A DNA stretch of 64,000 bases from Smithella sp. (lineage in GTDB: Bacteria > Desulfobacterota > Syntrophia > Syntrophales > Smithellaceae): NCBI GenBank assembly GCA_049517435.1, contig JBEKRZ010000002.1, positions 77,659 to 141,658 of the forward strand, written 5' to 3'. Below are positions 2,696-29,096 of this stretch, piece by piece (the first letter of the stretch is position 1; each line of letters starts with the position of its first letter). Below the pieces are notes generated by a model that had not been told where the DNA came from, did not search any database, and saw nothing but the letters and a program-made list of their open reading frames with translations. Made by a program: the position numbers and the translations under genes.

Positions 2696-2728
2696 AAATT
2701 GAATTCCTATAATAATTATATATAATTT

Positions 2729-5872: not shown

Positions 5873-5874
5873 GG

Positions 5875-8679: not shown

Positions 8680-8800
8680 ATACCGTTCCGATTTCAAAGG
8701 ATAACGAGGCGACAAGGAGGAGGCGCAGGCGTATATGAAAATACGTTGAGGACGCTGACGACGAAGTCAACAAAGTTAACCGAGGAAAGCGAAATGGTAT
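8680..8800 (+). repeat. ~120-nt intergenic element with terminal inverted repeats, copy 2 (MITE-like)
   Basis: The sequence is ataccgttccgatttcaaaggataacgaggcgacaaggaggaggcgcaggcgtatatgaaaatacgttgaggacgctgacgacgaagtcaacaaagttaaccgaggaaagcgaaatggtat. It is homologous to the minus strand of 4969-5092 and ends 5 nt from the purF stop codon. Confidence 0.7.
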
Positions 8801-8805
8801 GAAAG

Positions 8806-10233: not shown

Positions 10234-10250
10234 ATATTTTCGCTTTCTGG

Positions 10251-10335
10251 CCCCGATAAACGGGATAAGCCCCGCCCATGCGGGATAAGTGCGTTAACGA
10301 ATTTGCTTTCTACCAGAAAGCAAATTCTAACTTAC
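10251..10335. repeat. composite intergenic hairpin repeat, copy B
   Basis: It is about 90% identical to 2017-2100 and abuts the carB stop codon. It contains the gaatttgctttc/gaaagcaaattc stem and the cccgc-ccat-gcggg hairpin. Confidence 0.75.
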
Positions 10336-13300
10336 TAAATATTTTGATATTCCTGCAATGAACAAACCTGCCAACTCTCATTTCTTATTGCTGATACCGC
10401 TTCGCACAGGGCGCGCGCGCCCGCAATGGTCGTGGTGTAAAGAATGTTATAAATAAGTGCGCCCCTCCTGATATGATAAGCATCCCGCGAAGATTTATGC
10501 CCCAGACTGGTATTAATTACCATCTGGATATCGCCGTTTTTAATGTAATCTACAATATGCGGCCGTCCTTCACTGACTTTAAAAACCAAGCCTGCTTCAA
10601 TGCCGTGATCTTTTAAGTATTTGGCCGTGCCTTTCGTAGCCACTATCTTAAAACCCATGTTCTGAAAAGATTCCGCTACCGGTACAATCTTATCCTTATG
10701 ATAATCATTAACGCTGATAAAGATAGTGCCTTTTGTAGGCATTTTAAATCCGGCCGCCATTTGCGATTTGGCAAAAGCCAGACCGAAAGAGTGGTCAATT
10801 CCCATAACTTCGCCGGTGGATTTCATTTCCGGCCCCAGTAAAATATCCACATCAGGAAAACGGTTAAAGGGGAAAACAGCTTCTTTGACAGAGACATATT
10901 CAGGTTGCGGCGCGACGGTAAATCCCAACTCTTTTAAAGATTTGCCCAGCATAACTTTAGTGGCAAGCTTGGCCAGCGGCACGCCGATCGCTTTGCTGAC
11001 AAAAGGAATGGTGCGCGACGCTCGGGGATTGACTTCCAGCACATATAATTTGCCGTCTTTAATAGCATACTGAATATTCATGAGGCCAACAACATTTAAT
11101 TCCTTCGCCAGCATTTTTGTCTGCTTTTTAATCAGCTCCAAAAGAGGAACGGAAATGGTCATGGGTGGCAAAATACAGGCGCTGTCCCCCGAATGGATTC
11201 CCGCTTCTTCGATATGCTCCATGATGCCGGCCACAACTGTCATCTTTCCGTCGCTGATCGCGTCCACATCTATTTCTATGGCATCCTCTAAAAATTTATC
11301 AATTAGAATGGGGTGCTCGGGGGAAACAAGTAACGCTCTTTCCATGAAGGAGCTCAATGTTTCCGGATCATATACTATTTCCATGGAACGGCCGCCCAGA
11401 ACATATGATGGTCTCACCAGTACAGGATAGCCGATGCGCTCGGCGGCCTGCAGAGCTTTTTCCACATCTCTGGCCGTATCATTGTCGGGCTGATTCAGGT
11501 TCAATTTGCGGACAATTTCCTGAAAACGGTCTCGATCCTCCGCGAGATCAATAGAATCGGGAGATGTTCCCATTATTTTTATTCCGGCTGCCTCCAGTCC
11601 TCTGGCTAAGTTAAGAGGCGTCTGGCCGCCAAATTGAGCGATCACCCCCTCCGGTTTTTCCGTCTGCAGAATGTGCAAAACATCTTCCAGCGTTACCGGT
11701 TCAAAAAAAAGTTTGTCGGACGTGTCGTAATCGGTGCTGACCGTTTCGGGATTGGAATTGATCATAATGCTCTCTACGCCCTCTTCCCGCAAGGCAAACG
11801 AAGCATGGACGCAGCAGTAATCAAATTCAATTCCCTGACCGATGCGATTGGGGCCGCCGCCGATGATTGCCACTTTCCTCTTCGCGGATGGCCGGGTTTC
11901 GTTTTCCGTTTCATAAGTGGAATAGTAATAAGGCGTATAGGCTTCAAATTCCGCCGCGCAGGTATCGACAAGTTTATATACCGGGATAATTTTTTCCCGC
12001 TCGCGCCACTGACGAATTTCCAACTCCGTCATTTTCCAAAAAGACGCCAGTGCCCTGTCGGCAAATCCCATTTTCTTTGCTTCTCGCAGCAACTCCACGG
12101 ATGGCACAGAATTTTTCAATTCATCTTCGGCATCCACAATTTCTTGGACCTGATGCAAAAACCAGGGATCGATTTTTGTTAATTCGTAGAGTTCATCAAT
12201 TGTCATCCCGTTTTGCATGGCCGAGGCAATATAAAAAAGCCGTAGCGAATTGGGTTTGATCAGCTTGCCTTTAAGAAATTCTTTTTTATCTTTTAAATCT
12301 TCCGGCAGAACTTGGCTAAGGCTGAAACGCCCTATTTCCAGGGAACGAATTGCTTTTTGCAGGGATTCTTTGAACGTGCGGCCGATGGCCATAGTCTCGC
12401 CGACGGATTTCATAGAGGTAGTTAAAAAATCATCGGCTTGAGGAAATTTTTCAAATGTCCAGCGGGGAATTTTTACGACACAGTAATCTATCGTCGGCTC
12501 AAAGGAAGCCATTGTCTCGCGGGTAATGTCGTTGGGGATTTCATCCAGCGTGTAGCCGACAGCAAGTTTCGCTGCTATTTTGGCAATAGGAAAACCTGTG
12601 GCTTTCGAGGCCAGCGCAGATGAACGCGAAACACGGGGATTCATTTCGACAACAATCATTTCACCCGTTTGGGGATGGATGGCAAACTGAACGTTGGAAC
12701 CGCCGGTCTCCACGCCAATTTCCCGCATGATGGCGATGGCGGCGTCTCGCATGATTTGATATTCTTTGTCAGTCAGAGTTTGCGCTGGAGCGACGGTGAT
12801 AGATTCACCAGTATGCACCCCCATTGCGTCGAAATTTTCGATGGAACAAATGATGACAACGTTATCAGCTTTGTCGCGCATCACTTCCAGCTCATATTCC
12901 TTCCATCCCAGAACCGATTCTTCGATCATGATTTCTGAAATCATGCTGGCATCCAGGCCACCTTTGGCGATTTCCATCAGTTCTTCGCGGTTGTATGCCA
13001 CGCCGCTGCCAGTTCCACCGAGGGTAAAGGAAGGCCGGATAATAAGGGGGAATCCGGTTTCATCGGCAATTTTAAGAACATCACTCATGGAGCGGGCAAA
13101 GCCGCTCTTGGGTACGCGCAAACCGATGTTTTCCATCGCGTGACGGAATTTTTCCCGGTCCTCCGCTTTATGGATAACTTCCAGCGACGCTCCGATCATT
13201 TCCACTTTGTATTTTTTCAGCACGCCGCTTTCGGCCAAAGCAACGGCTGTGTTCAATCCTGTTTGGCCGCCTAAAGTGGGAAGCAGCGCGTCCGGCCGCT

Positions 13301-16635: not shown

Positions 16636-18060
16636 TTAGATATCGTAATAAAGCATGAATTCATAAGGGTGCGGCCGTAAGTCCATCGCCTCAACCTCAT
16701 TCACCATCTTATAATCAATCCATGTATCAATGACATCTTGGGTGAATACATCTCCCTTAAGCAGGAATGCATGATCCTTTTTCAGGGCATTAAGAGCTTC
16801 ACGCAGAGAACCGGGCGTCTTCAATACTTTTTTTGCATCTTCCGGTGGAAGATCATAGATGTTCTTATCTAAAGGTTTACCTGGATCGATCTTATTCTGG
16901 ATGCCGTCCACCGCTGCCATCATAATCGCTGAAAATGCCAGGTAAGGATTACATGCCGGATCAGGACAGCGGAATTCCAGGCGTTTTGACTTAGGTGACG
17001 TGCTGTACATGGGTATACGCACTGCCGCGCTACGATTGCGCTTTGAATATGCCAAGTTGACCGGGGCTTCATAACCTGGTACCAAGCGTTTATAACTGTT
17101 GGTTGTCGGACTTGTCAACGCCAACAACGCGGGAGCATGTTTAAGGATTCCTCCGATAGCATACATGGCCATCTGAGAAAGCCCGGCATATCCGTCGCCG
17201 GCAAATAAATTTTTGTCTTTCTTCCATAAAGATATATGGACATGCATACCGCTACCATTATCGCCGAATAGCGGTTTAGGCATAAATGTCAATGTTTTAT
17301 TAAACTTTTTGGCAGTGTTCTTGAGTATATATTTATATTTCAGAAGATTATCCGCCATTTCTACCAGGGGTGAAAACTTCATATCAATCTCTGCCTGTCC
17401 GGCGGTAGCTACTTCATGATGCTGAGCCTCAACTTCAATTCCAATGCTTTCAAGTGTTAAAGCCATTTCACTGCGCAAGTCCATCTGGCTGTCGGTAGGC
17501 GGTACAGGAAAATACCCTTCTTTATGGCGAACTTTATAGCCCAGATTTGGATTTTCAACCCTACCACTATTCCAGATGCCTTCCACGCTGTCAATATGAT
17601 AATAGCCTTCATTAGTTTTCTGATCATAACGTATATCATCGAAGATAAAGAATTCTGCCTCTGGCCCAAAATATGCCGTATCGGCCAAGCCAAGCTTCTT
17701 AAGATAATTTTCTGCTTTTCTCGCTATGTTGCGGGGGTCTCTGGTGTAATCGGCACCGGTAATAGGATCCTGAATGTTGCATATCATAACCAAGGTCTTA
17801 ACGGCAGTAAAGGGGTCAATAAATGCAGTGGAAGGCACCGGCATTATAAGCATATCAGACTCATTAATTGCCTGCCAGCCGCGAATTGATGAACCGTCAA
17901 ATCCCAATCCTTCGGTAAACACATTTTCATCAATCTGACTTATAGGATAGCTGCAATGCTGCCAAATTCCGGGGAAATCCATGAATCGCAGATCAACTAT
18001 CCTCACCCTTTCCTTCTTAATTAATTCAAGAACATCTTTTGGTGTTTTTATTTCAGCCAT
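16636..18060 (-). CDS. glnA: glutamine synthetase type I
   Basis: The 474-aa product contains [44 protein letters not shown] and the adenylylation-loop-like [10 protein letters not shown]. Confidence 0.97.
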
Positions 18061-18189: not shown

Positions 18190-18205
18190 AGCAACAGCTA
18201 TGCCA
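18190..18205 (-). promoter_or_regulatory. sigma-54 (-24/-12) promoter for glnA
   Basis: The minus strand reads TTGGCATAGCTGTTGCT, i.e. TGGCAT-N5-TTGCT with exact GG/GC spacing. It lies about 130 nt upstream of the glnA ATG. Confidence 0.7.
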
Positions 18206-18618: not shown

Positions 18619-18634
18619 TGGCATTTATTTTGCT
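18619..18634 (+). promoter_or_regulatory. sigma-54 (-24/-12) promoter for the glutamate-synthase-like operon
   Basis: The plus strand reads TGGCATTTATTTTGCT, i.e. TGGCAT-N5-TTGCT. It lies about 80 nt upstream of the ATG at 18716. Confidence 0.7.
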
Positions 18635-18715: not shown

Positions 18716-20560
18716 ATGAAGCTGGTAGAAGAATTTAAAAAAATCTCGGGCGATATAAAAATTATCGACAAAGAAGAAGAAAAAGAAATGTACAGCCATG
18801 ATATCGGCGATGTTCCTGCCATCATGACTAAAACATTTTTTAATATACAACCTGATTTTGTCGTCCAACCCCAAAGCGCCGAAGAGATAAAAAAAGTACT
18901 GGAATTTGCTAATGGGAAAAAAGTGCCGGTTATTCCCAGGGGCGCCGCATCATGGGGATTCGGGGGTGTAATTCCGGCAAACGCTGGAATAGTAATTGAT
19001 TTATCACCTTTCCGAAAAATCCTCAATCTCAACAAAGCCGAAAAAACCATAACTGTGGAAGCGGGAGCAAGATGGAGCGATATTGATATTCTAGCTAAAA
19101 AAGAAGGTTTATGCCTGATGACATATCCATCGAGCAAGTTTTCCACCGTCGCCGGCTGGATTGCCACAGGCGGTTACGGCATCAACAGTTTCCGCTACGG
19201 ACACTTATCCAACCAGATTGTGTCCATGACAGTTATAACTCCTTCCGGTGAATCTAAGAAGATTACTCCTAATGATCCTGACTTTGCGTACTTCGTTTCC
19301 ACGGAAGGCGAGTTTGGAATAATTGTTGAAGTAACCCTTAAATTACGTGATGTTCCTCAAGCATCCTATTCGCATCTATTCTATTTTGAAAGTGACAAAG
19401 ACGCTTTTCTGTTCATTGAAAAATTCATCAAATTAGGAAAAGCGAATGAACTGAAGCCTAATGTAATACGTTTCCTTGATGAAAATAACTTAAATGACAT
19501 AAATGAAATCATGCATGCGAAGGTATTTAAAAAGAGTGCCGGAGTGCTGATGGAATTCAGCAGCTCTGAAGATGATAAGAAGTTTTCAACGGTTATAGAG
19601 CAAAGTGATTATGTCGAAGAAGCGCCTCGCTATGTTGCCAGCTATTTATGGAATGAGCGGCTTTTCGGCATGAAGACAAAGCGCCTCGGGCCAACCATTC
19701 TGGCAAGTGAAATTATCATTCCAATAAAAACTGCAGCAGCCTTCACTGAAAAAGCAAAAAAACTCGGGGAATATTACGGTGCGGAAATATGCATCGATTC
19801 CTATATTATAGATGAACATAAAGCACTCATCATGGCCACTTTCCTTTGCGATTCCAGGAAGAAAAAATATTTTATCAGTATGCCGCTCGTTTCCATGCTC
19901 ACGAAAGCTGCCGTTGGATTTGGCGCGGAACCCTATGGGCTCGGCCTCTGGAATGCCGCATTTATTAATTCCCTCTTCACCCGCGCAAAAAAACTTGACC
20001 TGTTGGCTTATAAGCAGCGTGTCGATCCTAACAACATTCTGAATCCGGGTAAATTCTTCAGTATTAATTCAAATGTAATAACTTCCCTTTTATTCAATCC
20101 GGTCTTTTTCAATGCATCTATCGGCATTGTTTCCTTTCTGTCACCGGTTATTGGAAAAGCCGTGACTCTGCTCTTTGGAAAGAATGAAAAGGTAGATACT
20201 CTTGATTATGAGCTGACTACTCATGCCTGTGCCAAATGCGGAAACTGCCTTGCGGTTTGTCCGGCATATCTTGTCACCGGAAATGAAGCAGTGACCGCAA
20301 AGGGAAAGATTGCTCTGGCTAAAAAGCTTATTGAGGGAAGACGAGTAACGAAAGAAGAATCTGAAAATGCGTTTATGTGCATGCATTGCAAAGCCTGTGA
20401 AGAAATATGTCAAACCAATCTCGAACTGATGACGCTTTGGGATTCGCTGGAAAAAAGAATAGAAGCTAACATTGGCCGGCCCGAAGAAAAGATTAATGAA
20501 TTTCTTAAGAAGGTTGATGACAGCAAAGATTACTGGGAAATGGTGGATCGGAATAATTGA
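18716..20560 (+). CDS. FAD-linked oxidoreductase (PCMH/GlcD-type FAD-binding domain) fused to a C-terminal 2x[4Fe-4S] ferredoxin-like domain
   Basis: The N-terminal part shows the FAD_binding_4 pattern (VVQPQSAEEIKKVLEFANGKKVPVIPRGAASWGFGG...AGWIATGGYG). The C-terminal part has two Cys motifs, CAKCGNCLAVCP and CMHCKACEEICQ. Confidence 0.75.
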   Translation: MKLVEEFKKISGDIKIIDKEEEKEMYSHDIGDVPAIMTKTFFNIQPDFVVQPQSAEEIKKVLEFANGKKVPVIPRGAASWGFGGVIPANAGIVIDLSPFRKILNLNKAEKTITVEAGARWSDIDILAKKEGLCLMTYPSSKFSTVAGWIATGGYGINSFRYGHLSNQIVSMTVITPSGESKKITPNDPDFAYFVSTEGEFGIIVEVTLKLRDVPQASYSHLFYFESDKDAFLFIEKFIKLGKANELKPNVIRFLDENNLNDINEIMHAKVFKKSAGVLMEFSSSEDDKKFSTVIEQSDYVEEAPRYVASYLWNERLFGMKTKRLGPTILASEIIIPIKTAAAFTEKAKKLGEYYGAEICIDSYIIDEHKALIMATFLCDSRKKKYFISMPLVSMLTKAAVGFGAEPYGLGLWNAAFINSLFTRAKKLDLLAYKQRVDPNNILNPGKFFSINSNVITSLLFNPVFFNASIGIVSFLSPVIGKAVTLLFGKNEKVDTLDYELTTHACAKCGNCLAVCPAYLVTGNEAVTAKGKIALAKKLIEGRRVTKEESENAFMCMHCKACEEICQTNLELMTLWDSLEKRIEANIGRPEEKINEFLKKVDDSKDYWEMVDRNN

Positions 20561-20603
20561 ATCACAAAAAATTAAATAATGTTGAAAAGATGAATTAAAG
20601 ACT

Positions 20604-22007
20604 ATGCCAAAGAAATATCACATTCACTCAAAAGTAACGCCGCTTGATCTGGATTATGTTTACAAATTTAAGATTGAGCGGGGAGAAAACTGCATCAATT
20701 GCGGTAAATGCACCAAAGTTTGCATTTATGAGGCGCATAAACGGGGAAAAGGTGATCCTCGTAAAATGGCGGACCCGAACACGGTAGTCTGCAGAAACTG
20801 CTTTCGATGCATTCAAGAATGCCCCCGGGGAGCGTTGGAGAAATCTCTGGATAAGGACTTTTTAAATATCGGCGGCTCCTACTGGAAGTCCGATATGTTT
20901 ATTACTTTATGGAAGCAGGCGGAGGATGGTAAAGTTCCTGTTACGGGCGCCGGGTATCGAGGCCCGTTTACCGGCCCGGGGTTTGACAGTATGTGGACCG
21001 ATATGTCGGAAATTGTGCGCCCGACACGCGACGGAATTCATGGACGGGAATACATCAGCACATCCGTTGAACTGGGCAGGAAGCTCAATCACCTGACCTT
21101 TGATGAAAATGGCAAATTATTGTCGAAAATTCATGATACAATTGATATTCCGATTCCCATCATCTTTGATTTTCCCCAAGATAATTTGAGTCCGAATGTA
21201 AAAGTTGCCCTGGTAAGAGCGGCCGCGGAACTAAACACCTGTATCGTATTGTCTGCGGATGATATTAAGATGGATATAAAAAAATATATAAAAAACATCA
21301 TTCCATTAATTTCCCATAAAGAAATTGATAAGCATCAGGGGTTAATCAAAAGTGTAAGATTTGTGGCCCTTGATTATAGCGAAGAAATATTAAGCGCTTT
21401 ACCTGCACTGCAGGATAAAATTAAAAAAATAAATAATGTACTTACTATAATTCGAGTTCCCGCAACGAAATCTGTGGAAGACATTGTTTCCAGGCTGGCA
21501 CATAGTGGCGCGGAGATCATCCATGTCGTGGCCGATTATCGAGGTCAGGAGAATAATGGTTCGGCAGATACTAACCGGCGTCTTGCCAAGGATATTATCC
21601 GTGCCGTTCATCTGAAGCTGGTTGAGGATAGAATCCGCGATGAAGTTACAATTATTTTCTCCGGCGGAATAGCAATGGCCGAGCATGTGCCGAAGGCAAT
21701 GCTTTGTGGCGCTGATTTAACGGCAATAGATTTGCCGCTGCTTATTGCGATTGGCACCAGGTTATATGAAGAACCGGAGAAGATATTAGTATTCCCCGAA
21801 GGACTGGAAAAAATTAAAGTGAAAACTGTAATGCAGAGGATCATTAACCTCATGGGCGCATGGCACTCGCAGCTCCTGGAGGTAATGGGCGCCATGGGTA
21901 TTCGTGAAGCACGCAGGTTGCGCGGTGAAACCGGAAGGGCTATCTTCTTTGAAGAAATCGATAATGATACTTTTGGAAAAATATTTAAAAAAAGAGAAAC
22001 GGTATAA
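20604..22007 (+). CDS. ferredoxin-domain protein with a divergent glutamate-synthase FMN-domain-like TIM barrel (GltB domain-2 paralog)
   Basis: The N-terminus has CINCGKCTKVC and CRNCFRCIQECP. The C-terminal IIFSGGIAMAEHVPKAMLCGADLTAIDL parallels ASGGIRTAHDLAKAICLGADGAVIG of the next gene. The canonical GGMSFGS and KPGxGG motifs are missing. Confidence 0.6.
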   Translation: MPKKYHIHSKVTPLDLDYVYKFKIERGENCINCGKCTKVCIYEAHKRGKGDPRKMADPNTVVCRNCFRCIQECPRGALEKSLDKDFLNIGGSYWKSDMFITLWKQAEDGKVPVTGAGYRGPFTGPGFDSMWTDMSEIVRPTRDGIHGREYISTSVELGRKLNHLTFDENGKLLSKIHDTIDIPIPIIFDFPQDNLSPNVKVALVRAAAELNTCIVLSADDIKMDIKKYIKNIIPLISHKEIDKHQGLIKSVRFVALDYSEEILSALPALQDKIKKINNVLTIIRVPATKSVEDIVSRLAHSGAEIIHVVADYRGQENNGSADTNRRLAKDIIRAVHLKLVEDRIRDEVTIIFSGGIAMAEHVPKAMLCGADLTAIDLPLLIAIGTRLYEEPEKILVFPEGLEKIKVKTVMQRIINLMGAWHSQLLEVMGAMGIREARRLRGETGRAIFFEEIDNDTFGKIFKKRETV

Positions 22008-22009
22008 TT

Positions 22010-23494
22010 ATGAAACCACCTTCGGCTGTCAAAATTAAAAAAATGCCTTCGCGCTTCAAGCATCAGGTGCCGAAATATAAGGTTACTCGATCCAGCGCCT
22101 GCATCAACTGCGGTACTTGCGCCAAATCATGCCCCTACGGAGTTCATGAAAAAAGGGAGGGGCAAAACAAGATGAGAGTCCCTATAAACTATAAATGTAT
22201 CGGGTTTGAATGCAAAAACAATGATTTTTATTGTGTGGCAAAATGTCCGCGCAAGGCTTTGAGTATTTCTCTTAATCCTATGTATGAAACACTCGGCGAT
22301 TACCGCTGGACGGCGGATATGATCACCGGAACCTGGATAATGGCGGAAACGGGATATCCACCCGAACGTAAGGATCTGGAATATAATACCGGTAATTCCG
22401 GCGGCGGCTTCGACAAGCTACGTCTCAAGTTTCCTGCCGGGCAGCCGAAAATTGATAAGTCTGAAATATCAACAGAGATTCCCTTAAACAAGAGAAATGA
22501 TGGCCGTGCCAATATTATCATTTCCACTCCTGTCTATGGCGGCGGCATGTCCTTCGGGTCGGTAAGTTTGCCAACCATGCTTGCAAAAGCGCACAACGCG
22601 ACAATATGGAATACCTTTACCTGCACAGGAGAAGGAGGATACCCGGAACTGCTTCAACCTTATGATGACCACGTGATTACTCAAGTGGCGACAGGTTTAT
22701 TTGGAGTGCGTGAAGAAACAATACAGCGGGTAAAGATAATTGAATTCAAATACGCGCAGGGCGCGAAACCCGGCCTTGGCGGTCATCTTCTGGGTGAAAA
22801 AAATACCGAAAGCGTTGCCCGGATGCGTGAAGCGGTCAAAGGCACTTCTTTGTTTTCACCTTTTCCATTTCATTCGGTGTATTCCATTGAAGATCACAAG
22901 AAGCATATTGACTGGATCAAAGAAATCAATCCTAACGCACTTGTTTCCGTTAAGGTTTCGACACCCAACGATGTAGATATGGTTGCTGTCGGTTCATACT
23001 ATGCCGGAGCTCATATAATTCATATCGATGGCGGATATGGCGGTACCGGTGCGGCGCCGGATATTGCCAAAAAGAACATTGCCATGCCTATTGAATATGC
23101 GATATCGAAAGTTCATAATTTTTTAAAAGACGAGGGCGCCCGCGACGCGATGACACTTATTGCCTCAGGTGGCATTCGAACTGCTCATGATTTGGCCAAA
23201 GCCATTTGTCTGGGCGCGGACGGAGCGGTTATCGGCACAGCGGAATTGGTTTCTCTGGAATGCGTCAGATGTGGAAACTGTGAATCGGGCCGTGGTTGTG
23301 CCCGGGGTATTGCCTCAACGGATTCGGAACTTGCCGATTTATTTAATGAGGAATGGGCTACACAACGCCTGACTAACATGTACCATGCATGGAATGTCCA
23401 GCTTGTGGAAATACTGCAGAAGTTCGGCATGAAGAGCGTAAGAGAACTTGTTGGCCGGACTGATTTGCTTGAGCATATAGATTACAGTAAATAA
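22010..23494 (+). CDS. glutamate synthase FMN-binding subunit (archaeal-type GltB domain 2) with an N-terminal 4Fe-4S ferredoxin domain
   Basis: Motifs present are CINCGTCAKSCP, GGMSFGSVS, KYAQGAKPGLGGHLLGEK, IHIDGGYGGTGAAP, ASGGIRTAHDLAKAICLGADGAV and the Cys cluster CVRCGNCESGRGC. Confidence 0.85.
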   Translation: MKPPSAVKIKKMPSRFKHQVPKYKVTRSSACINCGTCAKSCPYGVHEKREGQNKMRVPINYKCIGFECKNNDFYCVAKCPRKALSISLNPMYETLGDYRWTADMITGTWIMAETGYPPERKDLEYNTGNSGGGFDKLRLKFPAGQPKIDKSEISTEIPLNKRNDGRANIIISTPVYGGGMSFGSVSLPTMLAKAHNATIWNTFTCTGEGGYPELLQPYDDHVITQVATGLFGVREETIQRVKIIEFKYAQGAKPGLGGHLLGEKNTESVARMREAVKGTSLFSPFPFHSVYSIEDHKKHIDWIKEINPNALVSVKVSTPNDVDMVAVGSYYAGAHIIHIDGGYGGTGAAPDIAKKNIAMPIEYAISKVHNFLKDEGARDAMTLIASGGIRTAHDLAKAICLGADGAVIGTAELVSLECVRCGNCESGRGCARGIASTDSELADLFNEEWATQRLTNMYHAWNVQLVEILQKFGMKSVRELVGRTDLLEHIDYSK

Positions 23495-23511
23495 AGCGGA
23501 GTTTAGTAATA

Positions 23512-26136
23512 ATGGACAATGTTGAAAAAATAATAATATCACGAGATGAACTTTGCAGCCAGGTGCCGCCTTTGGCCATGAATACCGAAGAAGAGGGTGG
23601 CTGCGGTGTAACAGGCTTTATCTGTTCGATTCCCGTAACCGGGAAAAATATTTTTGAGCCATCCGTGCAGATGCACAACAGAGGCAATGGAAAAGGCGGC
23701 GGCATTGGCGCCGTAGGATTTATTCCCGAAGCAATGGGTGTATCCAAACAGGTGCTTCAGGACGATTATATGCTGCACATTGCTCTTCTCGACGCGAGTG
23801 TATGTACCGAAATTGAAAATACCTACATCAAACCGTACTTTAAAATCGATAAAGCGGAAAAGCTTGCCACCATTGACGATCATCGCAGTATCGGATTGGA
23901 TGTGCGGCCGCCGGATGTAATGCGTTATTTTGTGCGCGTTGAGGATGATGTCCTCGATAAATTCATTGCGGATAACAAATTTTCATCAATGGATCGGCGT
24001 GACGCTGAGGATGAATTTGTTTATCAGAACAGCTTTAAGATTAACACGCACTATTACGCGTCTCTTGGTGAAAAAAAGGCTTTTATCATGTCGCACGGCA
24101 GGAACATGATGATCCTGAAAATCGTGGGATATGCGGAAAACGTCGTTAAATACTATAAACTGGAAGACTTCAAAGCATATGCCTGGCTGGCCCACCAGCG
24201 TTATCCGACACGCGGACGTGTCTGGCATCCGGGTGGCTGCCATCCGTTTAGCGCACTCCATGAAGCTTTGGTGCATAACGGTGACTTTGCTAATTATCAG
24301 GCTGTGAGTGAATATCTAAAACAGCGCAACTATTACCCTCTGTTTCTGACAGATACTGAAGAAGCCGCGCTGCTTCTGGATTTGTGGAGCAGAGTATATA
24401 AATATCCTCTGGAACACCTGATTGAAGCCATGGCCCCGACTTCGGAAATGGACTTTGATATGTTGCCCGCTGAAAAGCAGGAACTGTATAAAGCTATTCA
24501 GACCCATCATGTAAACTCATCGCCGGATGGACCGTGGTTCTTTATCATTGCCAGGAATGATGTTAGAAATGATCAATTCCAGCTAATAGGCATTACCGAT
24601 ACTGCTATGTTACGCCCTCAAGTATTTGCCCTGCAGGAGGGGGAAGTCCAGATCGGTCTGATTTGTTCGGAGAAGCAGGCCATTGATGCGACGCTGATTT
24701 CCCTGGAAAGAGAAGATCCGCGTTTCGGGCCTATTGCCGATAAATATTGGAATGCCCGCGGTGGCAGTTATACTGATGGCGGTTCATTTATTTTCAGCCT
24801 TAAAGATACCGCAGATGGCATGAAGCTTATTTGTACCGACAAGTTTGGGAAGGTAATCAAAACTCCAAAGGGCAAAGTCACCTGTGATGTAGCAAAAAAG
24901 ATTTCAGTTACGGAAGACTACAGACCTATAGAAGGAAAGATTGCTGGTTTATTTACCGAAAGTGATTATTCAACCGTTGCTGATAAATTGTTCACATATG
25001 TAAAGGATAGCATGGGCAGCTTTAATCCGGACAAGCTCAGATTCTGCATTGAGACGATCAAGAGTTATGCCCTGAAAAGTGATAACGGCAAACAAGCAGT
25101 CGTCAGCGCGTTAACGCTTTTGAATGATCGTCGATTCAATACCGGCTCGATAAAAAGAAGCTCCCTGCTACATGTACTGAAAATAACTCTGGCTGATATT
25201 TTCGACGCAACGCCGATGATTACGGAAATGTCAAATTCAATCTTCAGCCGGATTAATTATAAAAGCCGTGATCAACTTCGTGCGCCGAAAAGCAATGAGA
25301 AAATTCTGGTTATTGACGCCGAACAGTTTGAGCCGGAAGGCGATCTTTGCGACGCGGTAATGATTGTGAAGGCCTTTAAGCTCGGCTGGAAACGGTTTAT
25401 TGTTTACAAATATCGTGGTCAGAGGTTTACGGGTTGTGGTTTTGGTCCGGCGACCAAAGATGTGAGAATCGATGTCTACGGGGCTTCCGGCGATTATCTG
25501 GCATCAGGCATTGACGGCATGGAAATTTATGTTCATGGCAATGCTCAGGATCAACTCTGCCAGATTATGAAGGAAGGGAAACTTGTTGTATTTGGCGATG
25601 TCGGCCAGACATTCATGTACGGAGCCAAGGGGGGCAGCGCGTATATAATGGGCAACGCGGCGGGTCGGCCTTTAATCAATGCTGTAGGCAAGCCGCGCGT
25701 GGTGATCAATGGCACCGCTCTGGATTACCTTGCTGAATCTTTTATGGCCGGCGATCCGCTCAATGGCGGCGGTTTTGTTATTCTCAACGGTATTGGTTTT
25801 AACGCTGAAGATGGTTCGGTTTATGAGTACGAATCACCTTATCCCGGTTCGAATATATTCTCTCTGGCTTCCGGTGGAGCGATTTATGTCCGAGATCCGC
25901 ATAAGAAACTTGTTGATGAGCAGTTAAATGGAGGAGAATTTGCTGAAATTACGGATGCGGACTGGCAACTGATTGAGCCTTATCTGAAAGAAAATGAAAA
26001 ACTATTCGGCATTACTATAGACAGGCTTTTAACAGTTGAAGATAGTAAAAAAGCTCCGCAAGCAGTCTACAGAAAGATCAGACCTCAAAAAATGACAGCT
26101 GTCCACAAAGACGATGATGATGGCTTGGAAGAATAA
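23512..26136 (+). CDS. fusion of a class-II glutamine amidotransferase (GltB domain 1-like) and a GXGXG domain (GltB domain 3-like)
   Basis: The N-terminal nucleophile context is EEGGCGVTGF, followed by HQRYPTRG and NGDFANY. The C-terminal third carries the repeated G-x-G pattern YGASGDYLASGIDGMEIYVHGNAQDQ...VFGDVGQTFMYGAKGGSAYIMGNAAGRP. About 250 aa in the middle are unassigned. Confidence 0.8.
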   Translation: MDNVEKIIISRDELCSQVPPLAMNTEEEGGCGVTGFICSIPVTGKNIFEPSVQMHNRGNGKGGGIGAVGFIPEAMGVSKQVLQDDYMLHIALLDASVCTEIENTYIKPYFKIDKAEKLATIDDHRSIGLDVRPPDVMRYFVRVEDDVLDKFIADNKFSSMDRRDAEDEFVYQNSFKINTHYYASLGEKKAFIMSHGRNMMILKIVGYAENVVKYYKLEDFKAYAWLAHQRYPTRGRVWHPGGCHPFSALHEALVHNGDFANYQAVSEYLKQRNYYPLFLTDTEEAALLLDLWSRVYKYPLEHLIEAMAPTSEMDFDMLPAEKQELYKAIQTHHVNSSPDGPWFFIIARNDVRNDQFQLIGITDTAMLRPQVFALQEGEVQIGLICSEKQAIDATLISLEREDPRFGPIADKYWNARGGSYTDGGSFIFSLKDTADGMKLICTDKFGKVIKTPKGKVTCDVAKKISVTEDYRPIEGKIAGLFTESDYSTVADKLFTYVKDSMGSFNPDKLRFCIETIKSYALKSDNGKQAVVSALTLLNDRRFNTGSIKRSSLLHVLKITLADIFDATPMITEMSNSIFSRINYKSRDQLRAPKSNEKILVIDAEQFEPEGDLCDAVMIVKAFKLGWKRFIVYKYRGQRFTGCGFGPATKDVRIDVYGASGDYLASGIDGMEIYVHGNAQDQLCQIMKEGKLVVFGDVGQTFMYGAKGGSAYIMGNAAGRPLINAVGKPRVVINGTALDYLAESFMAGDPLNGGGFVILNGIGFNAEDGSVYEYESPYPGSNIFSLASGGAIYVRDPHKKLVDEQLNGGEFAEITDADWQLIEPYLKENEKLFGITIDRLLTVEDSKKAPQAVYRKIRPQKMTAVHKDDDDGLEE

Positions 26137-26138: not shown

Positions 26139-27722
26139 CTAATCCGTATCATCGGAATTTTTATTGTTTTTGCGGAAAAGCTTGGGATTGATTCCTAATT
26201 TTGTAATTTTATATTGAATAATACGTTTTGTTGTCCCCAAAACTTTGGCGGCCTTTGTTTGATTCCCACCGGTTGCTTCCAACGTATCAATAATTAAAGA
26301 TCTTTCCTGCGCTTCGACAACAGAAGATAGTTTGCTGTGTTCTTTCTTTTCCACTTTAGTTTCTTTTACATGCAAAGACGGCGGCAAATGAAAAGAATCG
26401 ATAGTATCAGTATTTGATAAAAGAACAGCCCTCTCAATACAATTTTCCAGTTCACGCACATTACCGGGCCATTTGTGAGATAGAAATACTTCTATTGCTG
26501 CGGTGGAAATTTTTTTAACATTTTTTCCCATTTCCTTACTGTATTTCAAAATAAAATGATCCGCCAGAAGTATAATATCACTGCCTCTTTCGCGAAGTGA
26601 AGGTAAATATATTGGAAAAACATTTAAACGATAAAACAAATCGGCACGAAAACGTTCAGCCACAATGTCTTGTTCTAAATTTCTGTTGGTTGCCGCGATA
26701 ATACGGACATTAACATTTATAATCCGCGAAGAACCCAACGGCTGAAACCTTTTTTCCTGCAAAACGCGCAAAAGTTTTACCTGAGCGGCGGCAGAAAGCT
26801 CTCCTACTTCATCCAGGAAAATTGTGCCGCCGTTAGCCTCTTCAAAACGTCCCCGGCGTTGATGCAGCGCTCCAGTAAAAGATCCTCTTTCATGACCAAA
26901 GAGCTCGCTTTCAATCAACGTATCCGGAATAGCCGCACAATTAACCTGCACCATCGGCCCTTTGTGCCGCGGAGAGTTCATATGTATAGCTCTGGCGATC
27001 AGTTCCTTACCGGTTCCTGTTTCGCCGGTGATTAAGACTGTCGTATTGGAATCGGCTACCTGGGCTACCAAACCGAATACTTCCTGCATCGGCTTGGAAT
27101 GGCCGATAATATCTATAGAAGGCGCGCGCCCACTGCCGACAATTTTTCTAAGACGTTCGTTTTCTTCCTCCAGTGCCCTGATATGCACAGCCTTGGCCAT
27201 AAGCTCAGCTACGGCGGAGAGCATGGCCAGTTCGCAATCCAGATCTTCCACTTCGAGAGCTACTTTATCGGCTGAAAGAACGCCGACGACATTTGCATCA
27301 TAAATAATGGGAACGCAAAGAAAAGCCAGTTCCGATCTGTTTAAATGACGTCGGGCGCCGGTGCGGTCTAAAAAGTGAGTAGCCTGACCAAGATTAGCCA
27401 CGGCCATAGGGCGGCCTGTTTCCGCCACTTTGCCGGTAATACCCTCGCCGGGTTTGTAAGTTACGTCCATTCCTTCGATATTTATATCATGAGCAATATC
27501 GAGCCATGCCTCTTTTTTTTCCCTATCCAGAAGCGAAATCATGCCCCGCTTCATGCCTAGACGGGAACTCATTTCCTGCAGGACCAGATCCAATTGATCG
27601 CGGAGGTCTTGAGGCTGAGCTAAAATTTTAGCTATCGCGTGCAATGTGGCCAGCTCTTCATAACTATGAATACTCAAATTACGCTCTTTCTCAGAAAAAG
27701 ATTTTTTTGTAGCTTTGCTCAT
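26139..27722 (-). CDS. sigma-54-dependent transcriptional activator (GAF sensor, AAA+ domain, Fis-type HTH; NifA-like architecture)
   Basis: It contains a GAF-like N-terminus, Walker A GETGTGKE, the GAFTGA variant [24 protein letters not shown] and the C-terminal [24 protein letters not shown]. The start was set at the MSKATKK ATG at 27722. Confidence 0.9.
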
Positions 27723-27951
27723 AGACGGTTCGGCAAACCTAAAAGTATTTTGTAACAAAATTGTACTAATAGCAATCGTTTTTTAGCTTCTTAGAAGAAA
27801 TTTGCAAAGAGTAAGCCAATTATGAGTTTTTTTGATAATTTCCCCTCCCAATGGTAAGTTTGATTGTATTTTAAAAAAACAAATCAATAAAAGTTAGTTG
27901 AAAAAAAAGACAATCGCAATAGATCTAATTTATCAAATATGAGGGTTATCT

Positions 27952-29096
27952 ATGATTTCGAAAAGAGCGTCCAGATTCACATCTTTCATTGTCATGGATG
28001 TAATGGCGAAAGCCGAAGAGTTGGAGCGTAAAGGGGAACACGTTATCCATCTGGAAGTAGGCGATCCCGATTTCCCACACCCAAAGTTATAACGAAGGCG
28101 GCCAGCGACGCTTTGCACAATAACAAAACCCGCTATACCCACGCCTTAGATTTGTTGGAACTGCGTCAGGCTATATGTGATTTTTATTTTAAGGAATACA
28201 GTGTCAATATAACGCCAGATCAGGTGCTGGTCTCCACAGGCACTTCTCCCGCACTGTTATTCGCGATGCTCGCGATTTTAGATCATGGCAACGAAGTGAT
28301 TATCTCCAATCCGCGCTACCCCTGTTACCAGAACTTTATCCTCGCGACCGGAGGCAAGACTAAAGAGGTTAAAACTTACCCGGAAGAGGGATTTCAATAC
28401 CGTCCTGATGACATCAAAAAGAAGCTCTCGCCACGGACAAAGGCGATTCTGATTAACTCGCCTTCCAATCCCACAGGCATTGTCATGAGCAAAGACCAAT
28501 TACAGAACATTGCGCAATTTGATCGCCAGTATATTATCTCGGATGAAATTTATCAAGGCTTGGTCTATCAAGATCGGGCTCACTCTATTTTGGGATTCAC
28601 GGATAAGGCTTTTGTCATCAATGGTTTTTCTAAATTATACGCGATGACCGGCTGGCGCTTGGGTTACTGCATCTTCCCCAAACAGTTTTCAAAAGTTATG
28701 CAGAGAATTCATCAGAATTTTATGATTTCCGCTAACGGCTTTATTCAATGGGCGGGCATCGCCGCTCTTACCAAAGCTAAAAAAGATGTGGCCAAAATGA
28801 TAAGGATTTACAATGAACGCCGCCAATACATGCTGGCGCGCTTGAAAAACATGGGTTTTGTAATTCATGTCGAGCCGACTGGCGCGTTTTATGTGTTTGC
28901 CGATGCGCGGCGCTTTTGCACGGATTCTTACAAGGAAGCTTTTCGTATTACTGAAGAGATAAAGGTTGGAGTTACACCCGGCATGGATTTCGGTAGTGCA
29001 GGCGAAGGATTTTTACGTTTTTCTTACGCCAATTCGATAGAAAACATTAAAGAAGGCTTAAACCGGCTTGAGCGTTATCTTCGCAAATATGATTAA
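27952..29096 (+). pseudogene. class I/II (aspartate-type) aminotransferase interrupted by a 1-nt frameshift
   Basis: Frame 1 from the ATG at 27952 reads MISKRASRFTSFIVMDVMAKAEELERKGEHVIHLEVGDPDFPHPKL*. Another frame continues FPTPKVITKAASDALHNNKTRYTHA... to 29096. The two join into the canonical GDPDFPTP motif if one T is added to the T3 run at 28071-28073. The pyridoxal-phosphate Lys region SKLYAMTGWRLGY is present. Confidence 0.8.

What the first reader, a model, noticed from the sequence alone, without database searches (positions are those of the whole stretch)
18716..26136. Split and rearranged glutamate-synthase-like operon with an FAD/Fe-S oxidoreductase in place of a GltD-type subunit
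Four co-directional, tightly spaced genes make up the operon:
- A GlcD-type FAD-binding oxidoreductase fused to a 2x[4Fe-4S] domain.
- A ferredoxin plus a degenerate GltB FMN-domain paralog that lacks the GGMSFGS and KPGxGG motifs.
- A ferredoxin plus a canonical FMN domain.
- A GATase-II/GXGXG fusion with about 250 unassigned residues between the two domains.

No NAD(P)H-binding GltD-like subunit is present in the window. The domain order differs from bacterial GltB (GATase, central, FMN, GXGXG). The electron-input route, possibly the FAD/Fe-S protein, and the role of the degenerate paralog are not evident. Archaeal-type split GOGATs are known but poorly characterised biochemically.
Basis: partly seen in the sequence, partly recalled or inferred. 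Interest (0 to 1): 0.6.

Follow-up and report, generated by a model that had tools for sequence, protein, structure and literature searches.

The report
Four-subunit glutamate synthase with flavoprotein partner
This is a real, sigma-54-driven four-gene operon that appears to be this anaerobe's only way to make glutamate: a split glutamate synthase whose usual NADPH-binding subunit is replaced by a dedicated FAD/iron-sulfur protein of unknown electron donor, a form widespread in syntrophic anaerobes for which I found no published study.

Summary
Four co-directional ORFs (18716-26136; gaps of 43, 2 and 17 nt) encode:
- P1: a VAO/GlcD-fold FAD protein with 2x[4Fe-4S].
- P2: a ferredoxin-fused, catalytically dead full-length paralog of P3.
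- P3: a ferredoxin-fused canonical glutamate-synthase FMN barrel.
- P4: a glutaminase, a five-helix module and a GXGXG beta-helix in one chain.

The genome (Smithella-like, 98% complete) has no other catalytic GOGAT domain, no other GXGXG domain and no glutamate dehydrogenase. Its best GltD homolog lies on another contig beside an NfnA-like gene. The operon is divergent from glnA. A near-consensus sigma-54 promoter precedes P1 and recurs upstream of P1 in 29 of 50 related loci.

P1-P2-P3-P4 keeps its order in 47 of 48 "type I" loci with enough upstream DNA. These come from Thermodesulfobacteriota, Chloroflexota, Verrucomicrobiota and Bacillota; an ANME-1 archaeon carries the same order.

P1 lacks the metal triad and catalytic His of GlcD/LctD-type 2-hydroxyacid dehydrogenases, so its donor is unknown. 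Sister species carry, beside the orthologous sigma-54 activator, a P1-less variant embedded in MvhD/MetF/Hdr-like genes.

Best reading: a functional GS-coupled glutamate synthase with a lineage-specific electron-input module. This is a new variant of a known kind. No transcript or biochemical data were available.

The parts
18619..18634 (+). Sigma-54 (-24/-12) promoter-like site TGGCATTTATTTTGCT, about 80 nt upstream of the P1 start
   Evidence: One mismatch to TGGCAC-N5-TTGCW. Only 3 such one-mismatch sites occur in the 64 kb window, and 2 of them lie in this intergenic region. The same motif lies upstream of the P1 ORF in 28 of 50 related loci and just inside the called ORF start in one more (L067); background is 0.015 per 520 nt.
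18190..18205 (-). Sigma-54 promoter-like site facing the divergent glnA
   Evidence: TGGCATAGCTGTTGCT, one mismatch. It lies upstream of glnA (16636-18060, minus strand).
16636..18060 (-). glnA, glutamine synthetase type I, divergent neighbour
   Evidence: Gln-synt_C 2.1e-134 and Gln-synt_N 1.4e-32.
18716..20560 (+). P1: VAO/PCMH-fold FAD protein fused to a 2x[4Fe-4S] domain, with no CCG domain. Proposed electron-input subunit.
   Evidence: Pfam. Best PDB sequence match is LctD 7qh2_C, 1e-23. Present directly upstream of P2 in 47 of 48 type I loci, plus 1 partial copy.
18851..19261 (+). P1 FAD-binding domain (aa 46-182)
   Evidence: FAD_binding_4, 4.9e-34, profile positions 1-137 of 139.
19442..20053 (+). 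P1 cap (substrate) domain (aa 243-446). The GlcD/LctD metal triad and catalytic His are replaced by Y363, A370, P406 and Y407. The family has its own conserved motifs: WNERLFG.K.KRLGP, LCDSR and PYGLG.WN.
   Evidence: Alignment to LctD. Conservation across 51 aligned sequences (query plus 50 homologs). The own-genome 1026-aa paralog shows the same loss.
20078..20185 (+). P1 conserved hydrophobic segment (aa ~455-490) between the cap and Fe-S domains
   Evidence: Kyte-Doolittle 19-residue maxima of 1.7-2.1 in the bacterial family members sampled; the ANME-1 homolog reaches only 1.33. Its role is unknown (buried linker or membrane association).
20222..20419 (+). P1 2x[4Fe-4S] domain (C505/508/511/515 and C555/558/561/565)
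   Evidence: Fer4_8 3.7e-10. Matches GlcF N-terminal positions 19-112 at 2.5e-16. All 8 Cys are invariant.
20604..22007 (+). P2: ferredoxin domain plus a complete but catalytically stripped TIM barrel. It is a full-length paralog of P3.
   Evidence: hhalign of the P2 family against the P3 family: probability 100%, E 1.4e-58, 424 columns. AlphaFold pLDDT 81.5. Top Foldseek hits are GMP reductase, IMPDH and glycolate/lactate oxidases.
20682..20834 (+). P2 2x[4Fe-4S] ferredoxin domain (C30/33/36/40 and C63/66/69/73)
   Evidence: Fer4 families. All 8 Cys are invariant in 43 sequences.
22010..23494 (+). P3: ferredoxin domain plus a canonical glutamate-synthase FMN/synthase barrel. This is the catalytic synthase subunit.
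   Evidence: Glu_synthase 7.5e-87. Matches E. coli-type GltB positions 865-1176 at 3.4e-60. GGMSFGS and AKPGLGGHLLG are present.
23261..23299 (+). P3 Cys cluster C418-x2-C421-x2-C424-x5-C430, at the position of the GltS [3Fe-4S] site
   Evidence: All four Cys are invariant in 61 sequences. This is four ligands instead of the three that I recall for canonical GltS.
23512..26136 (+). P4: propeptide, Ntn glutaminase, five-helix module and GXGXG beta-helix in one chain
   Evidence: Pfam. AlphaFold pLDDT 71.5. Best structural matches are glutamate synthases 7mfm_G, 6s6s_A and 1ofd_A at probability 1.0. The beta-helix aligns to the GltB C-terminus.
23602..23604 (+). Codon of Cys31, the predicted N-terminal nucleophile after removal of a 30-residue propeptide
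   Evidence: E28-G29-G30-C31-G32-V33 are invariant in 43 sequences, as are R57, H228-Q229-R230, N256-G257 and D281.
24904..25206 (+). P4 five-helix insert (aa ~465-565) between the glutaminase and the beta-helix
   Evidence: Helices 468-480, 489-503, 506-520, 524-539 and 549-565, with pLDDT about 80-95. No counterpart in GltB by hhalign.
26139..27758 (-). GAF - sigma-54 AAA+ - HTH_8 enhancer-binding protein, convergent with P4 (2 nt apart)
   Evidence: Sigma54_activat 1.9e-72, GAF 2.4e-14, HTH_8 3.5e-9. Orthologs (81-94% identity) lie within a few kb of the cassette in many deltaproteobacterial loci. They also lie next to the type II cluster of sister species.

Best explanation
The operon encodes a four-subunit iron-sulfur flavoprotein glutamate synthase (GOGAT). 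It works with the adjacent glutamine synthetase as this organism's only route to glutamate.

Proposed roles:
- P4 is the glutaminase. Cys31 is exposed after propeptide removal, and the domain is fused through a helical module to the structural GXGXG beta-helix.
- P3 is the synthase. It carries FMN and a four-Cys Fe-S cluster, reduces 2-iminoglutarate, and has an N-terminal 2x[4Fe-4S] ferredoxin domain.
- P2 is a dead tandem duplicate of P3 that has lost the 2-oxoglutarate site and the cluster next to the flavin. It keeps its own 2x[4Fe-4S] domain and the barrel's phosphate-binding end. I infer that it pairs with P3, as the central domain pairs with the FMN domain in one-piece GltB, and that it extends the electron wire.
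- P1 takes the place of GltD. Its FAD oxidises a still unknown two-electron donor and passes single electrons through its two [4Fe-4S] clusters to the ferredoxin domains of P2 and P3, and on to the FMN.

Expression is probably sigma-54 dependent and nitrogen regulated.

Shown here: gene content, motifs, uniqueness in the genome, synteny and the promoter motif.

Inferred: complex formation, the electron path, the donor and the regulation.
For: - Domains and motifs.
- Uniqueness: P3 is the only catalytic Glu_synthase domain, P4 the only GXGXG domain, and no GDH was found in a 98%-complete genome.
- The strongest GltD homolog (C5, 486 aa) overlaps the next gene, a 279-aa FAD_binding_6/DHODB_Fe-S protein. 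That is an NfnAB-like pair, not a GOGAT partner.
- The order P1-P2-P3-P4 is kept in 47 (+1 partial) of 48 type I loci with enough upstream DNA. These span four bacterial phyla, and an ANME-1 archaeon shows the same order. Median gaps are 43, -4 and 8 nt.
- A sigma-54 -24/-12 motif lies upstream of P1 here and in 29 of 50 loci, against 0.015 expected. glnA is divergent and carries its own sigma-54 site, and a sigma-54 activator lies adjacent.
- No terminator-like hairpin lies in the three intergenic gaps.
- P1 has 8 invariant cluster Cys but no CCG acceptor domain, unlike its 1026-aa paralog, so it needs a partner to unload electrons.
- P4's best structural matches are glutamate synthases.
- Within the genus, genomes carry either this cassette or a 57%-identical P1-less one, never both.
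Against: - There are no transcript, protein or activity data.
- P1's donor is unknown. The catalytic His and metal triad of its nearest characterised relatives are missing, so P1 could have a non-dehydrogenase role.
- The more distant P2'-P3'-P4' clusters have no P1. The core may therefore run on ferredoxin alone.
- The P4 glutaminase core is modelled with low confidence (pLDDT below 50 for residues 230-345) and matches Pfam only weakly.
- Whether P2 binds FMN could not be decided.
- Most type I sister genomes also have a GDH, so the cassette is not indispensable everywhere.
Confidence: 0.65

Rival explanations
1. The core enzyme P2-P3-P4 is a self-sufficient ferredoxin-dependent GOGAT that receives electrons at its own ferredoxin domains. 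P1 is an accessory module that links the enzyme to an additional or alternative donor, or to a membrane site, but is not required.
For: P1-less clusters with the same P2-P3-P4 order exist in several lineages and in sister species. Both P2 and P3 carry solvent-type 2x[4Fe-4S] domains. P1 has a conserved hydrophobic segment.
Against: In the type I clade, P1 is never missing when the upstream DNA is available, and it is the promoter-proximal gene. The P1-less clusters are themselves flanked by other redox modules (MvhD, MetF/MetV, HdrC/B-like, an HdrA/GltD-like fusion), which suggests the core usually needs a partner.
Confidence: 0.2
2. P1 is a functionally unrelated dehydrogenase that merely sits upstream of a three-gene GOGAT.
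For: Its family is annotated only as 'FAD-binding protein' or 'FAD/FMN-containing dehydrogenase'. A 43-nt gap separates it from P2.
Against: Linkage and order are strict across four bacterial phyla and one archaeon, despite horizontal transfer. The sigma-54 promoter lies upstream of P1, and the P1-P2 gap shows no sigma-54 or strong sigma-70 site and no terminator. P1 has no acceptor domain of its own.
Confidence: 0.07
3. The complex is not a glutamate synthase. It is a related amidotransferase-reductase acting on another substrate, for example an N-methylglutamate-synthase-like or other 2-oxoacid/amide enzyme.
For: The P4 glutaminase is divergent (GATase_6 rather than GATase_2). P3 has KPGLGGH instead of KPGEGGQ, the canonical motif as I recall it, and a four-Cys cluster. 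GOGAT-like modules are known to be reused in the N-methylglutamate pathway (established knowledge).
Against: The genome would then have no route to glutamate at all. The operon pairs with glnA under sigma-54 promoters. P3 matches the GltB synthase region at 203.6 bits over 312 residues. P4's best fold matches are glutamate synthases.
Confidence: 0.06

Closest known systems
Bacterial NADPH-glutamate synthase GltB/GltD (Azospirillum brasilense, PDB 6s6s; B. subtilis GltAB, PDB 7mfm)
   Same: It has the same catalytic parts: an Ntn glutaminase with Cys1 behind a propeptide, an FMN/synthase barrel with GGMSFGS and KPGxGG motifs plus an adjacent Fe-S cluster, and a C-terminal GXGXG beta-helix. It is also paired with glutamine synthetase.
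   Different: - The domains are spread over three proteins in a different order. The glutaminase and beta-helix are fused, with a helical insert between them.
- There is no central domain. A full, ferredoxin-fused dead copy of the synthase subunit is present instead.
- Both barrels carry extra 2x[4Fe-4S] domains.
- The cluster next to the FMN has four Cys, not three.
- There is no GltD. A VAO-fold FAD/2x[4Fe-4S] protein stands in its place.
Split ('archaeal-type') glutamate synthases, and the C. thermocellum cluster Clo1313_2030-2036 (PMC4676874)
   Same: The glutaminase and a ferredoxin-fused FMN subunit are separate genes in one operon, and no GltD is present. [quoted passage not shown] Open reading frames for individual GltS domains are noted in Archaea (PMC8097209).
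   Different: Here the glutaminase and GXGXG parts are one 874-aa chain. A dead paralog (P2) is added. The partner is a GlcD-fold FAD/Fe-S protein rather than a polyferredoxin or an NADH-type flavoprotein.
GlcD / LctD / D-2-hydroxyglutarate dehydrogenase family of FAD-dependent 2-hydroxyacid dehydrogenases; GlcDEF and YdiJ-type fusions
   Same: P1 has the FAD_binding_4 and cap-domain fold. LctD (7qh2_C) is its best solved relative (1e-23). Its C-terminal Fe-S domain matches the N-terminal third of GlcF.
   Different: - The two metal-binding His, the Glu and the catalytic His are replaced by Y363, A370, P406 and Y407 throughout the P1 family.
- The CCG domains that pass electrons on in GlcF/YdiJ-type proteins are absent.
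- P1 scores 117.7 bits against a 567.9-bit cut-off for glcD.
P1-less sister clusters: MvhD-(MetV)-MetF-P2'-P3'-P4' followed by HdrC-like, HdrB-like and an HdrA/GltD-like fusion
   Same: The P2-P3-P4 core has the same order and domain content (57% identity for P4, 64% for P3, 41% for P2). In sister species the cluster sits next to the orthologous sigma-54 activator and aminotransferase.
   Different: The electron-input side is entirely different (Hdr/MvhD/MetF-type proteins with a GltD-like NAD(P)H module), and there is no P1. I know this form only from genome context and from earlier notes of this scan.

Membership tests
Glutamate synthase (GltS/GOGAT) catalytic core | Ntn-type (class II) glutaminase with an N-terminal Cys nucleophile and oxyanion Asn-Gly | tested here: met
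   C31 in the invariant EGGCGV motif follows a 30-residue leader. R57, H228-Q229-R230, N256-G257 and D281 are invariant in 43 sequences. Fold matches to GltS, GlmS and PurF. Pfam support is weak (GATase_6, 5.3e-6).
Glutamate synthase (GltS/GOGAT) catalytic core | FMN/synthase (beta/alpha)8 barrel with the GGMSFGS and KPGxGG substrate/flavin motifs | tested here: met
   P3: Glu_synthase 7.5e-87 and GltB large subunit 3.4e-60. The motifs are present in P3 and absent from P2.
Glutamate synthase (GltS/GOGAT) catalytic core | Fe-S cluster adjacent to the FMN (three-Cys [3Fe-4S] in characterised enzymes) | tested here: inconclusive
   P3 has four invariant Cys (C418, C421, C424, C430) at the homologous position. 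The cluster type ([3Fe-4S] or [4Fe-4S]) cannot be told from sequence.
Glutamate synthase (GltS/GOGAT) catalytic core | C-terminal GXGXG beta-helix | tested here: met
   GXGXG 1.7e-13. hhalign to GltB residues 1331-1511.
Glutamate synthase (GltS/GOGAT) catalytic core | Central domain (truncated alpha/beta barrel) between the glutaminase and the FMN domain | tested here: not met
   No region of P4 or P2 aligns significantly to the GltB central domain (hhalign probability 0.5% or less). The P4 insert is all-helical. P2 is a complete barrel paralogous to P3 and might play the same role, but that is inference.
Glutamate synthase (GltS/GOGAT) catalytic core | Catalyses glutamine + 2-oxoglutarate + 2 e- -> 2 glutamate | not testable with these tools
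   Support is indirect only: this is the sole candidate route to glutamate in the genome.
NAD(P)H-dependent GltS (GltB/GltD type) | GltD small subunit (Fer4_20 + Pyr_redox_2, NAD(P)H site) encoded with the large subunit | tested here: not met
   No Fer4_20 hit lies on the window's contig. The best hit elsewhere is paired with an NfnA-like gene.
GlcD/LctD/D2HGDH-type FAD-dependent 2-hydroxyacid dehydrogenases (for P1) | FAD_binding_4 (PCMH) domain plus FAD-oxidase_C cap | tested here: met
   4.9e-34 and 1.3e-7. LctD 1e-23 over residues 43-447.
GlcD/LctD/D2HGDH-type FAD-dependent 2-hydroxyacid dehydrogenases (for P1) | His-x6-His ... Glu-His set (metal ligands and catalytic base), as in HxGDGNxH and GEHG. 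The residue roles come from my knowledge of the D-LDH and D2HGDH structures. | tested here: not met
   LctD 'GHAGDGNLH' aligns to P1 'SYIIDEHKA', and 'GEHGIG' aligns to 'EPYGLG'. Y363 and A370 are kept in at least 85% of the aligned family, and P406 and Y407 in at least 98%.
Flavin-based electron-bifurcating enzymes (Nfn, Hdr or Bfu type) | A recognised bifurcating flavin module (NfnB/GltD-like FAD, HdrA, EtfAB or HydB/NuoF-like) in the complex | tested here: not met
   None of these domains occurs in P1-P4. They do occur beside the type II sister clusters.

The most novel reading that the evidence does not exclude
The P1-P2-P3-P4 complex would be a new class of glutamate synthase driven by a non-pyridine-nucleotide, non-ferredoxin donor. 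That donor would be oxidised at a re-purposed VAO-fold flavin, possibly at the membrane through P1's hydrophobic segment. Alternatively, it would be a multi-flavin enzyme (FAD in P1, FMN in P3 and perhaps a second FMN in P2) that uses the strongly exergonic reduction of 2-iminoglutarate to drive a second, uphill electron transfer. Energy-starved syntrophs would then recover energy from nitrogen assimilation. In this reading P2 is a living intermediate of the duplication proposed to have produced the GltB central domain.
Probability: 0.12. Interest if true: 0.85.

Novelty: new variant of a known kind. Interest (0 to 1): 0.6.

Why it matters
Glutamate synthase is the entry point of nitrogen into biomass. 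As I recall the textbook view, there are NADPH-, NADH- and ferredoxin-dependent classes plus poorly studied split archaeal forms.

This cassette would be a further form with a different electron-input protein. It is the only visible glutamate route in this Smithella-like genome. It is shared, at 82-96% identity for the catalytic subunit within the type I clade, by syntrophic fatty-acid and alkane degraders, Dehalococcoidia and anaerobic Verrucomicrobia; an ANME-1 archaeon carries a more distant copy (68%).

Knowing its donor would show how nitrogen assimilation draws on the very tight redox budget of these organisms. The dead paralog P2 bears on the old question of where the GltB central domain came from (duplication of the FMN barrel; PMC8097209).

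A cultured carrier, Syntrophus buswellii DM-2 (L074), makes the question testable.

Tried and rejected
- **P2 as a direct homolog of the GltB central domain: rejected at sequence level.** hhalign places P2 on the FMN domain of a canonical GltB (92% probability, residues 1032-1218). The central-domain alignment has 0.5% probability. Foldseek's top 50 for the P2 model are other FMN/IMPDH-type barrels, and GltS is not among them.
- **P4's unassigned stretch as a truncated central domain: rejected.** It is a five-helix module with no GltB counterpart.
- **A hidden GltD partner: rejected.** Fer4_20 hits exist only on other contigs. The best one is NfnAB-like, and the others are 1018-aa and 1525-aa ORFs; the 1524-aa one lies in an Hdr-like cluster.
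- **P1 as a D-lactate, glycolate or D-2-hydroxyglutarate dehydrogenase that could even supply 2-oxoglutarate: disfavoured.** The metal and His set is missing.
- **Upstream genes of P1-less loci as simple P1 substitutes: not simple.** They are MvhD-MetV-MetF in four of the more distant loci and unrelated genes (UbiD/UbiX/UbiA) in one. Downstream genes in L093 are unrelated.
- **The own-genome P1 paralog's neighbour as a substrate hint:** it is a FadL-type porin and not informative.
- **Literature:** seven full-text searches found no paper on this four-gene form.

Full report
**What is there**

The four ORFs are exactly as reported: P1 18716-20560 (614 aa), P2 20604-22007 (467 aa), P3 22010-23494 (494 aa) and P4 23512-26136 (874 aa). 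All lie on the + strand, with gaps of 43, 2 and 17 nt. None of the three gaps holds a terminator-like hairpin. The few weak hits in the region are intragenic and occur at chance frequency (16 found against 12.1 +/- 3.4 expected).

Pfam and NCBIfam give:
- P1: FAD_binding_4 (4.9e-34), a weak FAD-oxidase_C cap (1.3e-7) and a 2x[4Fe-4S] domain that matches the N-terminal third of GlcF (2.5e-16). There is no CCG domain.
- P2: a 2x[4Fe-4S] domain and only the C-terminal half of Glu_synthase (6.2e-8).
- P3: a 2x[4Fe-4S] domain and a full Glu_synthase domain (7.5e-87; 203.6 bits to the E. coli-type GltB model).
- P4: a weak class II glutaminase match (GATase_6, 5.3e-6) and GXGXG (1.7e-13).

**Surroundings and organism**

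The genes upstream are a divergent glnA, then carA, guaA, carB and a purF-like gene. Downstream, and convergent with P4, lies a GAF - sigma-54 AAA+ - HTH enhancer-binding protein, followed by an aminotransferase.

The 655-nt AT-rich glnA-P1 spacer holds two of the window's three one-mismatch matches to the sigma-54 consensus, and they face outward. TGGCATTTATTTTGCT lies about 80 nt before the P1 start, and TGGCATAGCTGTTGCT faces glnA.

Related loci identify the organism as a Smithella/Syntrophales-type bacterium.

**Is it the cell's GOGAT?**

The assembly is 98% complete. In it, P3 is the only catalytic Glu_synthase domain and P4 is the only GXGXG domain. No glutamate dehydrogenase was found.

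GltD-like Fer4_20 domains exist only on other contigs. The best one (486 aa) overlaps the next gene, a 279-aa FAD_binding_6/DHODB_Fe-S protein. This is an NfnAB-like pair.

This operon together with glnA is the only recognisable route to glutamate.

**Conservation**

A scan of species-representative genomes found 427 stretches encoding relatives of P4. I examined the 80 best loci. In 47 of the 48 "type I" loci (P4 at least 68% identical) with more than 2 kb of DNA upstream of P2, an intact P1 lies directly upstream of P2. The 48th (L062) has a partial copy. Median gaps are 43, -4 and 8 nt.

The carriers are Smithellaceae, Syntrophaceae (including the cultured Syntrophus buswellii DM-2), Syntrophorhabdaceae, Desulfomonilia, Dehalococcoidia and other Chloroflexota, Opitutae, and Syntrophomonadaceae. 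An ANME-1 archaeon has the same order, with P1 at 43% identity.

The sigma-54 motif TGG[CT]A[CT]-N5-T[TC]GC[ATC] (nearly always TGGCA[CT]-N5-TTGCT) recurs in the searched window around the P1 start in 29 of 50 loci, against 0.015 expected. Nearly all of these are deltaproteobacterial.

A P3 tree puts all type I sequences in one clade (SH-aLRT 100) with very short inter-phylum branches. The Syntrophomonadaceae sit next to Syntrophus. P3 is 82-96% identical across phyla, whereas CarA in the few flanking regions where it was found is 45-57% identical in the distant loci. The cassette has therefore moved between phyla as a unit, with P1 attached.

**P4**

The invariant EGGC31GV motif follows a 30-residue leader. 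R57, H228-Q229-R230, N256-G257 and D281 are also invariant. From my knowledge of GltB, PurF and GlmS, this is the pattern of an Ntn glutaminase that is activated by propeptide removal.

The AlphaFold model has a mean pLDDT of 71.5, and parts of the glutaminase core score below 50. It shows the glutaminase fold up to about residue 445, a confident five-helix module at 465-565, and then the beta-helix. Its best PDB matches are glutamate synthases 7mfm_G, 6s6s_A and 1ofd_A at probability 1.0, followed by GlmS, PurF and FwdC.

The helical module has no counterpart in GltB. The 'unassigned 250 residues' therefore shrink to about 100-150.

**P3 and P2**

P3 keeps GGMSFGS and AKPGLGGHLLG. It has four invariant Cys (C418, C421, C424, C430) where, as I recall, GltS binds its [3Fe-4S] cluster.

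P2 is a full-length paralog of P3, ferredoxin domain included (hhalign probability 100%, E 1.4e-58, 424 columns). It has lost:
- GGMSFGS;
- a roughly 40-residue stretch holding the KPGxGG region;
- the Cys cluster.

It keeps all eight ferredoxin Cys, the SGGI...GAD phosphate-binding end of the barrel and the C-terminal helix. Its model (pLDDT 81.5) is a complete TIM barrel. The closest solved relatives are GMP reductase, IMPDH and glycolate/lactate oxidases.

P2 evolves faster than P3 (39-94% against 63-96% identity across the same loci), as expected for a non-catalytic partner.

By sequence, P2 is not the GltB central domain (probability 0.5%). [quoted passage not shown] The Pfam central-domain model hits the same C-terminal barrel segment in both P2 and P3. 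I therefore infer, but have not shown, that P2 plays the central domain's scaffolding role and adds two clusters to the electron path. Whether it still binds FMN is open.

**P1**

The best solved relative is LctD of the Ldh-EtfAB complex (7qh2_C, 1e-23, residues 43-447), followed by alkyl-DHAP synthase and D-lactate and glycolate dehydrogenases.

In the alignment, the two His of HxGDGNxH and the Glu-His of GEHG fall on Y363, A370, P406 and Y407. From my knowledge of the D-LDH and D2HGDH structures, these four residues are the metal ligands and the catalytic base. The four replacements are conserved through the P1 family, which has its own invariant motifs: WNERLFG.K.KRLGP, LCDSR and PYGLG.WN.

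A 1026-aa paralog in the same genome shows the same loss but retains two CCG domains.

P1 is thus GlcD-like in fold only. Eight invariant Cys give it two [4Fe-4S] clusters, and it has nowhere of its own to send electrons. A conserved hydrophobic stretch at about residues 455-490 separates the cap from the Fe-S domain. Its meaning is unknown.

**Mechanism proposed**

P1's FAD oxidises an unidentified two-electron donor. Electrons then pass one at a time through P1's clusters and the ferredoxin domains of P2 and P3 to the P3 cluster and FMN. P4 hydrolyses glutamine, and the ammonia reaches 2-oxoglutarate on P3. The iminoglutarate formed there is reduced to glutamate.

- Shown: gene content, motifs, uniqueness in the genome, synteny and the promoter motif.
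- Inferred: complex formation, the order of the clusters, the donor and nitrogen control.

Candidate donors are NAD(P)H (MurB, a member of the same fold family, uses NADPH), an organic acid, or something lipid-soluble. I cannot rank them with confidence.

**A sister variant**

Within the same genus, six genomes carry this full cassette (P4 86-100% identical). Seven carry a 56-60%-identical P1-less version. None has both. Others have a different roughly 550-aa GltB-like gene plus GDH.

In two sister genomes the P1-less version sits beside the orthologous sigma-54 activator and aminotransferase. Its gene order is MvhD-like, MetF, P2', P3', P4', HdrC-like, HdrB-like and then a fusion of more than 1245 aa with GltD-like and HdrA-like parts. 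MvhD-MetV-MetF also precedes P2' in four of the more distant loci.

This shows that the P2-P3-P4 core is combined with different redox modules in different lineages. That fits P1 being one such input module. It also keeps open the rival that the core can run on ferredoxin alone.

**Comparison with what is known**

The catalytic parts qualify as glutamate synthase. The GltD-dependent class is excluded.

The nearest published relatives are the split forms noted in Archaea (PMC8097209) and the C. thermocellum cluster Clo1313_2030-2036, whose donor was never assayed (PMC4676874). Seven full-text searches found no paper on the four-gene form.

Earlier notes of this scan describe the same kind of operon in an Aminicenantes genome and the Hdr-linked form elsewhere. 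These are unreviewed AI notes, and I treat them as leads, not as evidence.

**Verdict**

This is a real, conserved, horizontally mobile operon. It is most likely a functional glutamate synthase with a novel electron-input flavoprotein and a dead-paralog subunit. It is a new variant of a known kind.

Noticed in passing
L114 (G024:C2:150000-169000) and L115 (G010:C16:13000-32000): Sister species of the same genus carry, next to the orthologous sigma-54 activator and aminotransferase (87-89% identity), a different cluster. Its order is MvhD-like (143 aa), MetF (296 aa), P2' (474 aa), P3' (543 aa), P4' (871 aa), an HdrC-like Fer4_8 protein (189 aa), an HdrB-like CCG protein (289 aa) and a fusion of more than 1245 aa holding Fer4_20, Pyr_redox_2 and a second FAD domain. 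This is a P1-less GOGAT core embedded in Hdr/MetF-type genes.
   Followed up: partly
window 27952-29096: The class I/II aminotransferase is split over two frames. Residues 1-46 of the sister-species protein match frame 1 (27952-28089), and residues 41-380 match frame 3 (28071-29090). This points to a frameshift or an assembly error near 28071-28089. The intact gene in sister genomes is 381 aa.
   Followed up: partly
window 20078-20185 (P1 aa ~455-490): A conserved hydrophobic stretch of 35-40 residues (Kyte-Doolittle 19-residue maxima of 1.7-2.1 in the bacterial members sampled) lies between P1's cap and its Fe-S domain. It could be a buried linker or a monotopic membrane anchor.
   Followed up: partly
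L120 (G000:C7:68500-74500), ORF 1044-4124 minus strand: The genome has a 1026-aa P1 paralog (26% identity in the BLASTP alignment) with FAD_binding_4, cap, 2x[4Fe-4S], two CCG domains and a Met/Pro-rich hydrophobic tail. It lies downstream of a FadL/TodX-type outer-membrane transporter gene. It shares P1's loss of the His/Glu catalytic set, so this is an uncharacterised subfamily.
   Followed up: partly
L116 (G000:C5:70000-84000), ORFs 5658-7118 and 7063-7902 minus strand: This is an NfnAB-like pair: a GltD-like 486-aa protein (Fer4_20 8.6e-43, Pyr_redox_2) overlapping a 279-aa FAD_binding_6/DHODB_Fe-S protein. A second 286-aa protein with FAD_binding_6, NAD_binding_1 and DHODB_Fe-S domains lies next to them.
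   Followed up: no
L118 (G000:C5:84000-101000): The own genome has an Hdr-like cluster without GOGAT genes. On the minus strand it encodes a 1524-aa protein matching the HdrA/GltD-like fusion of L114, an MvhD-like 146-aa protein, a 336-aa ORF, an HdrC-like 175-aa protein and an HdrB-like 295-aa protein. These are only 34-47% identical to the proteins flanking the type II GOGAT in sister species, so they are paralogous rather than orthologous.
   Followed up: partly
genomes G005, G008, G009, G014, G019, G023 (same genus): A third group of genus members has neither cassette. Instead it has a 549-557-aa Glu_synthase-domain protein (E about 1e-55) plus a glutamate dehydrogenase. Nitrogen-assimilation gene content therefore varies strongly within one genus.
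   Followed up: no
L103 (ANME-1 'Methanophagaceae' G37ANME1), 7986-10580: Here a P4 homolog (60% identity) stands without P2 or P3 next to it. It lies between a tRNA-splicing endonuclease gene and a class V aminotransferase gene.
   Followed up: no
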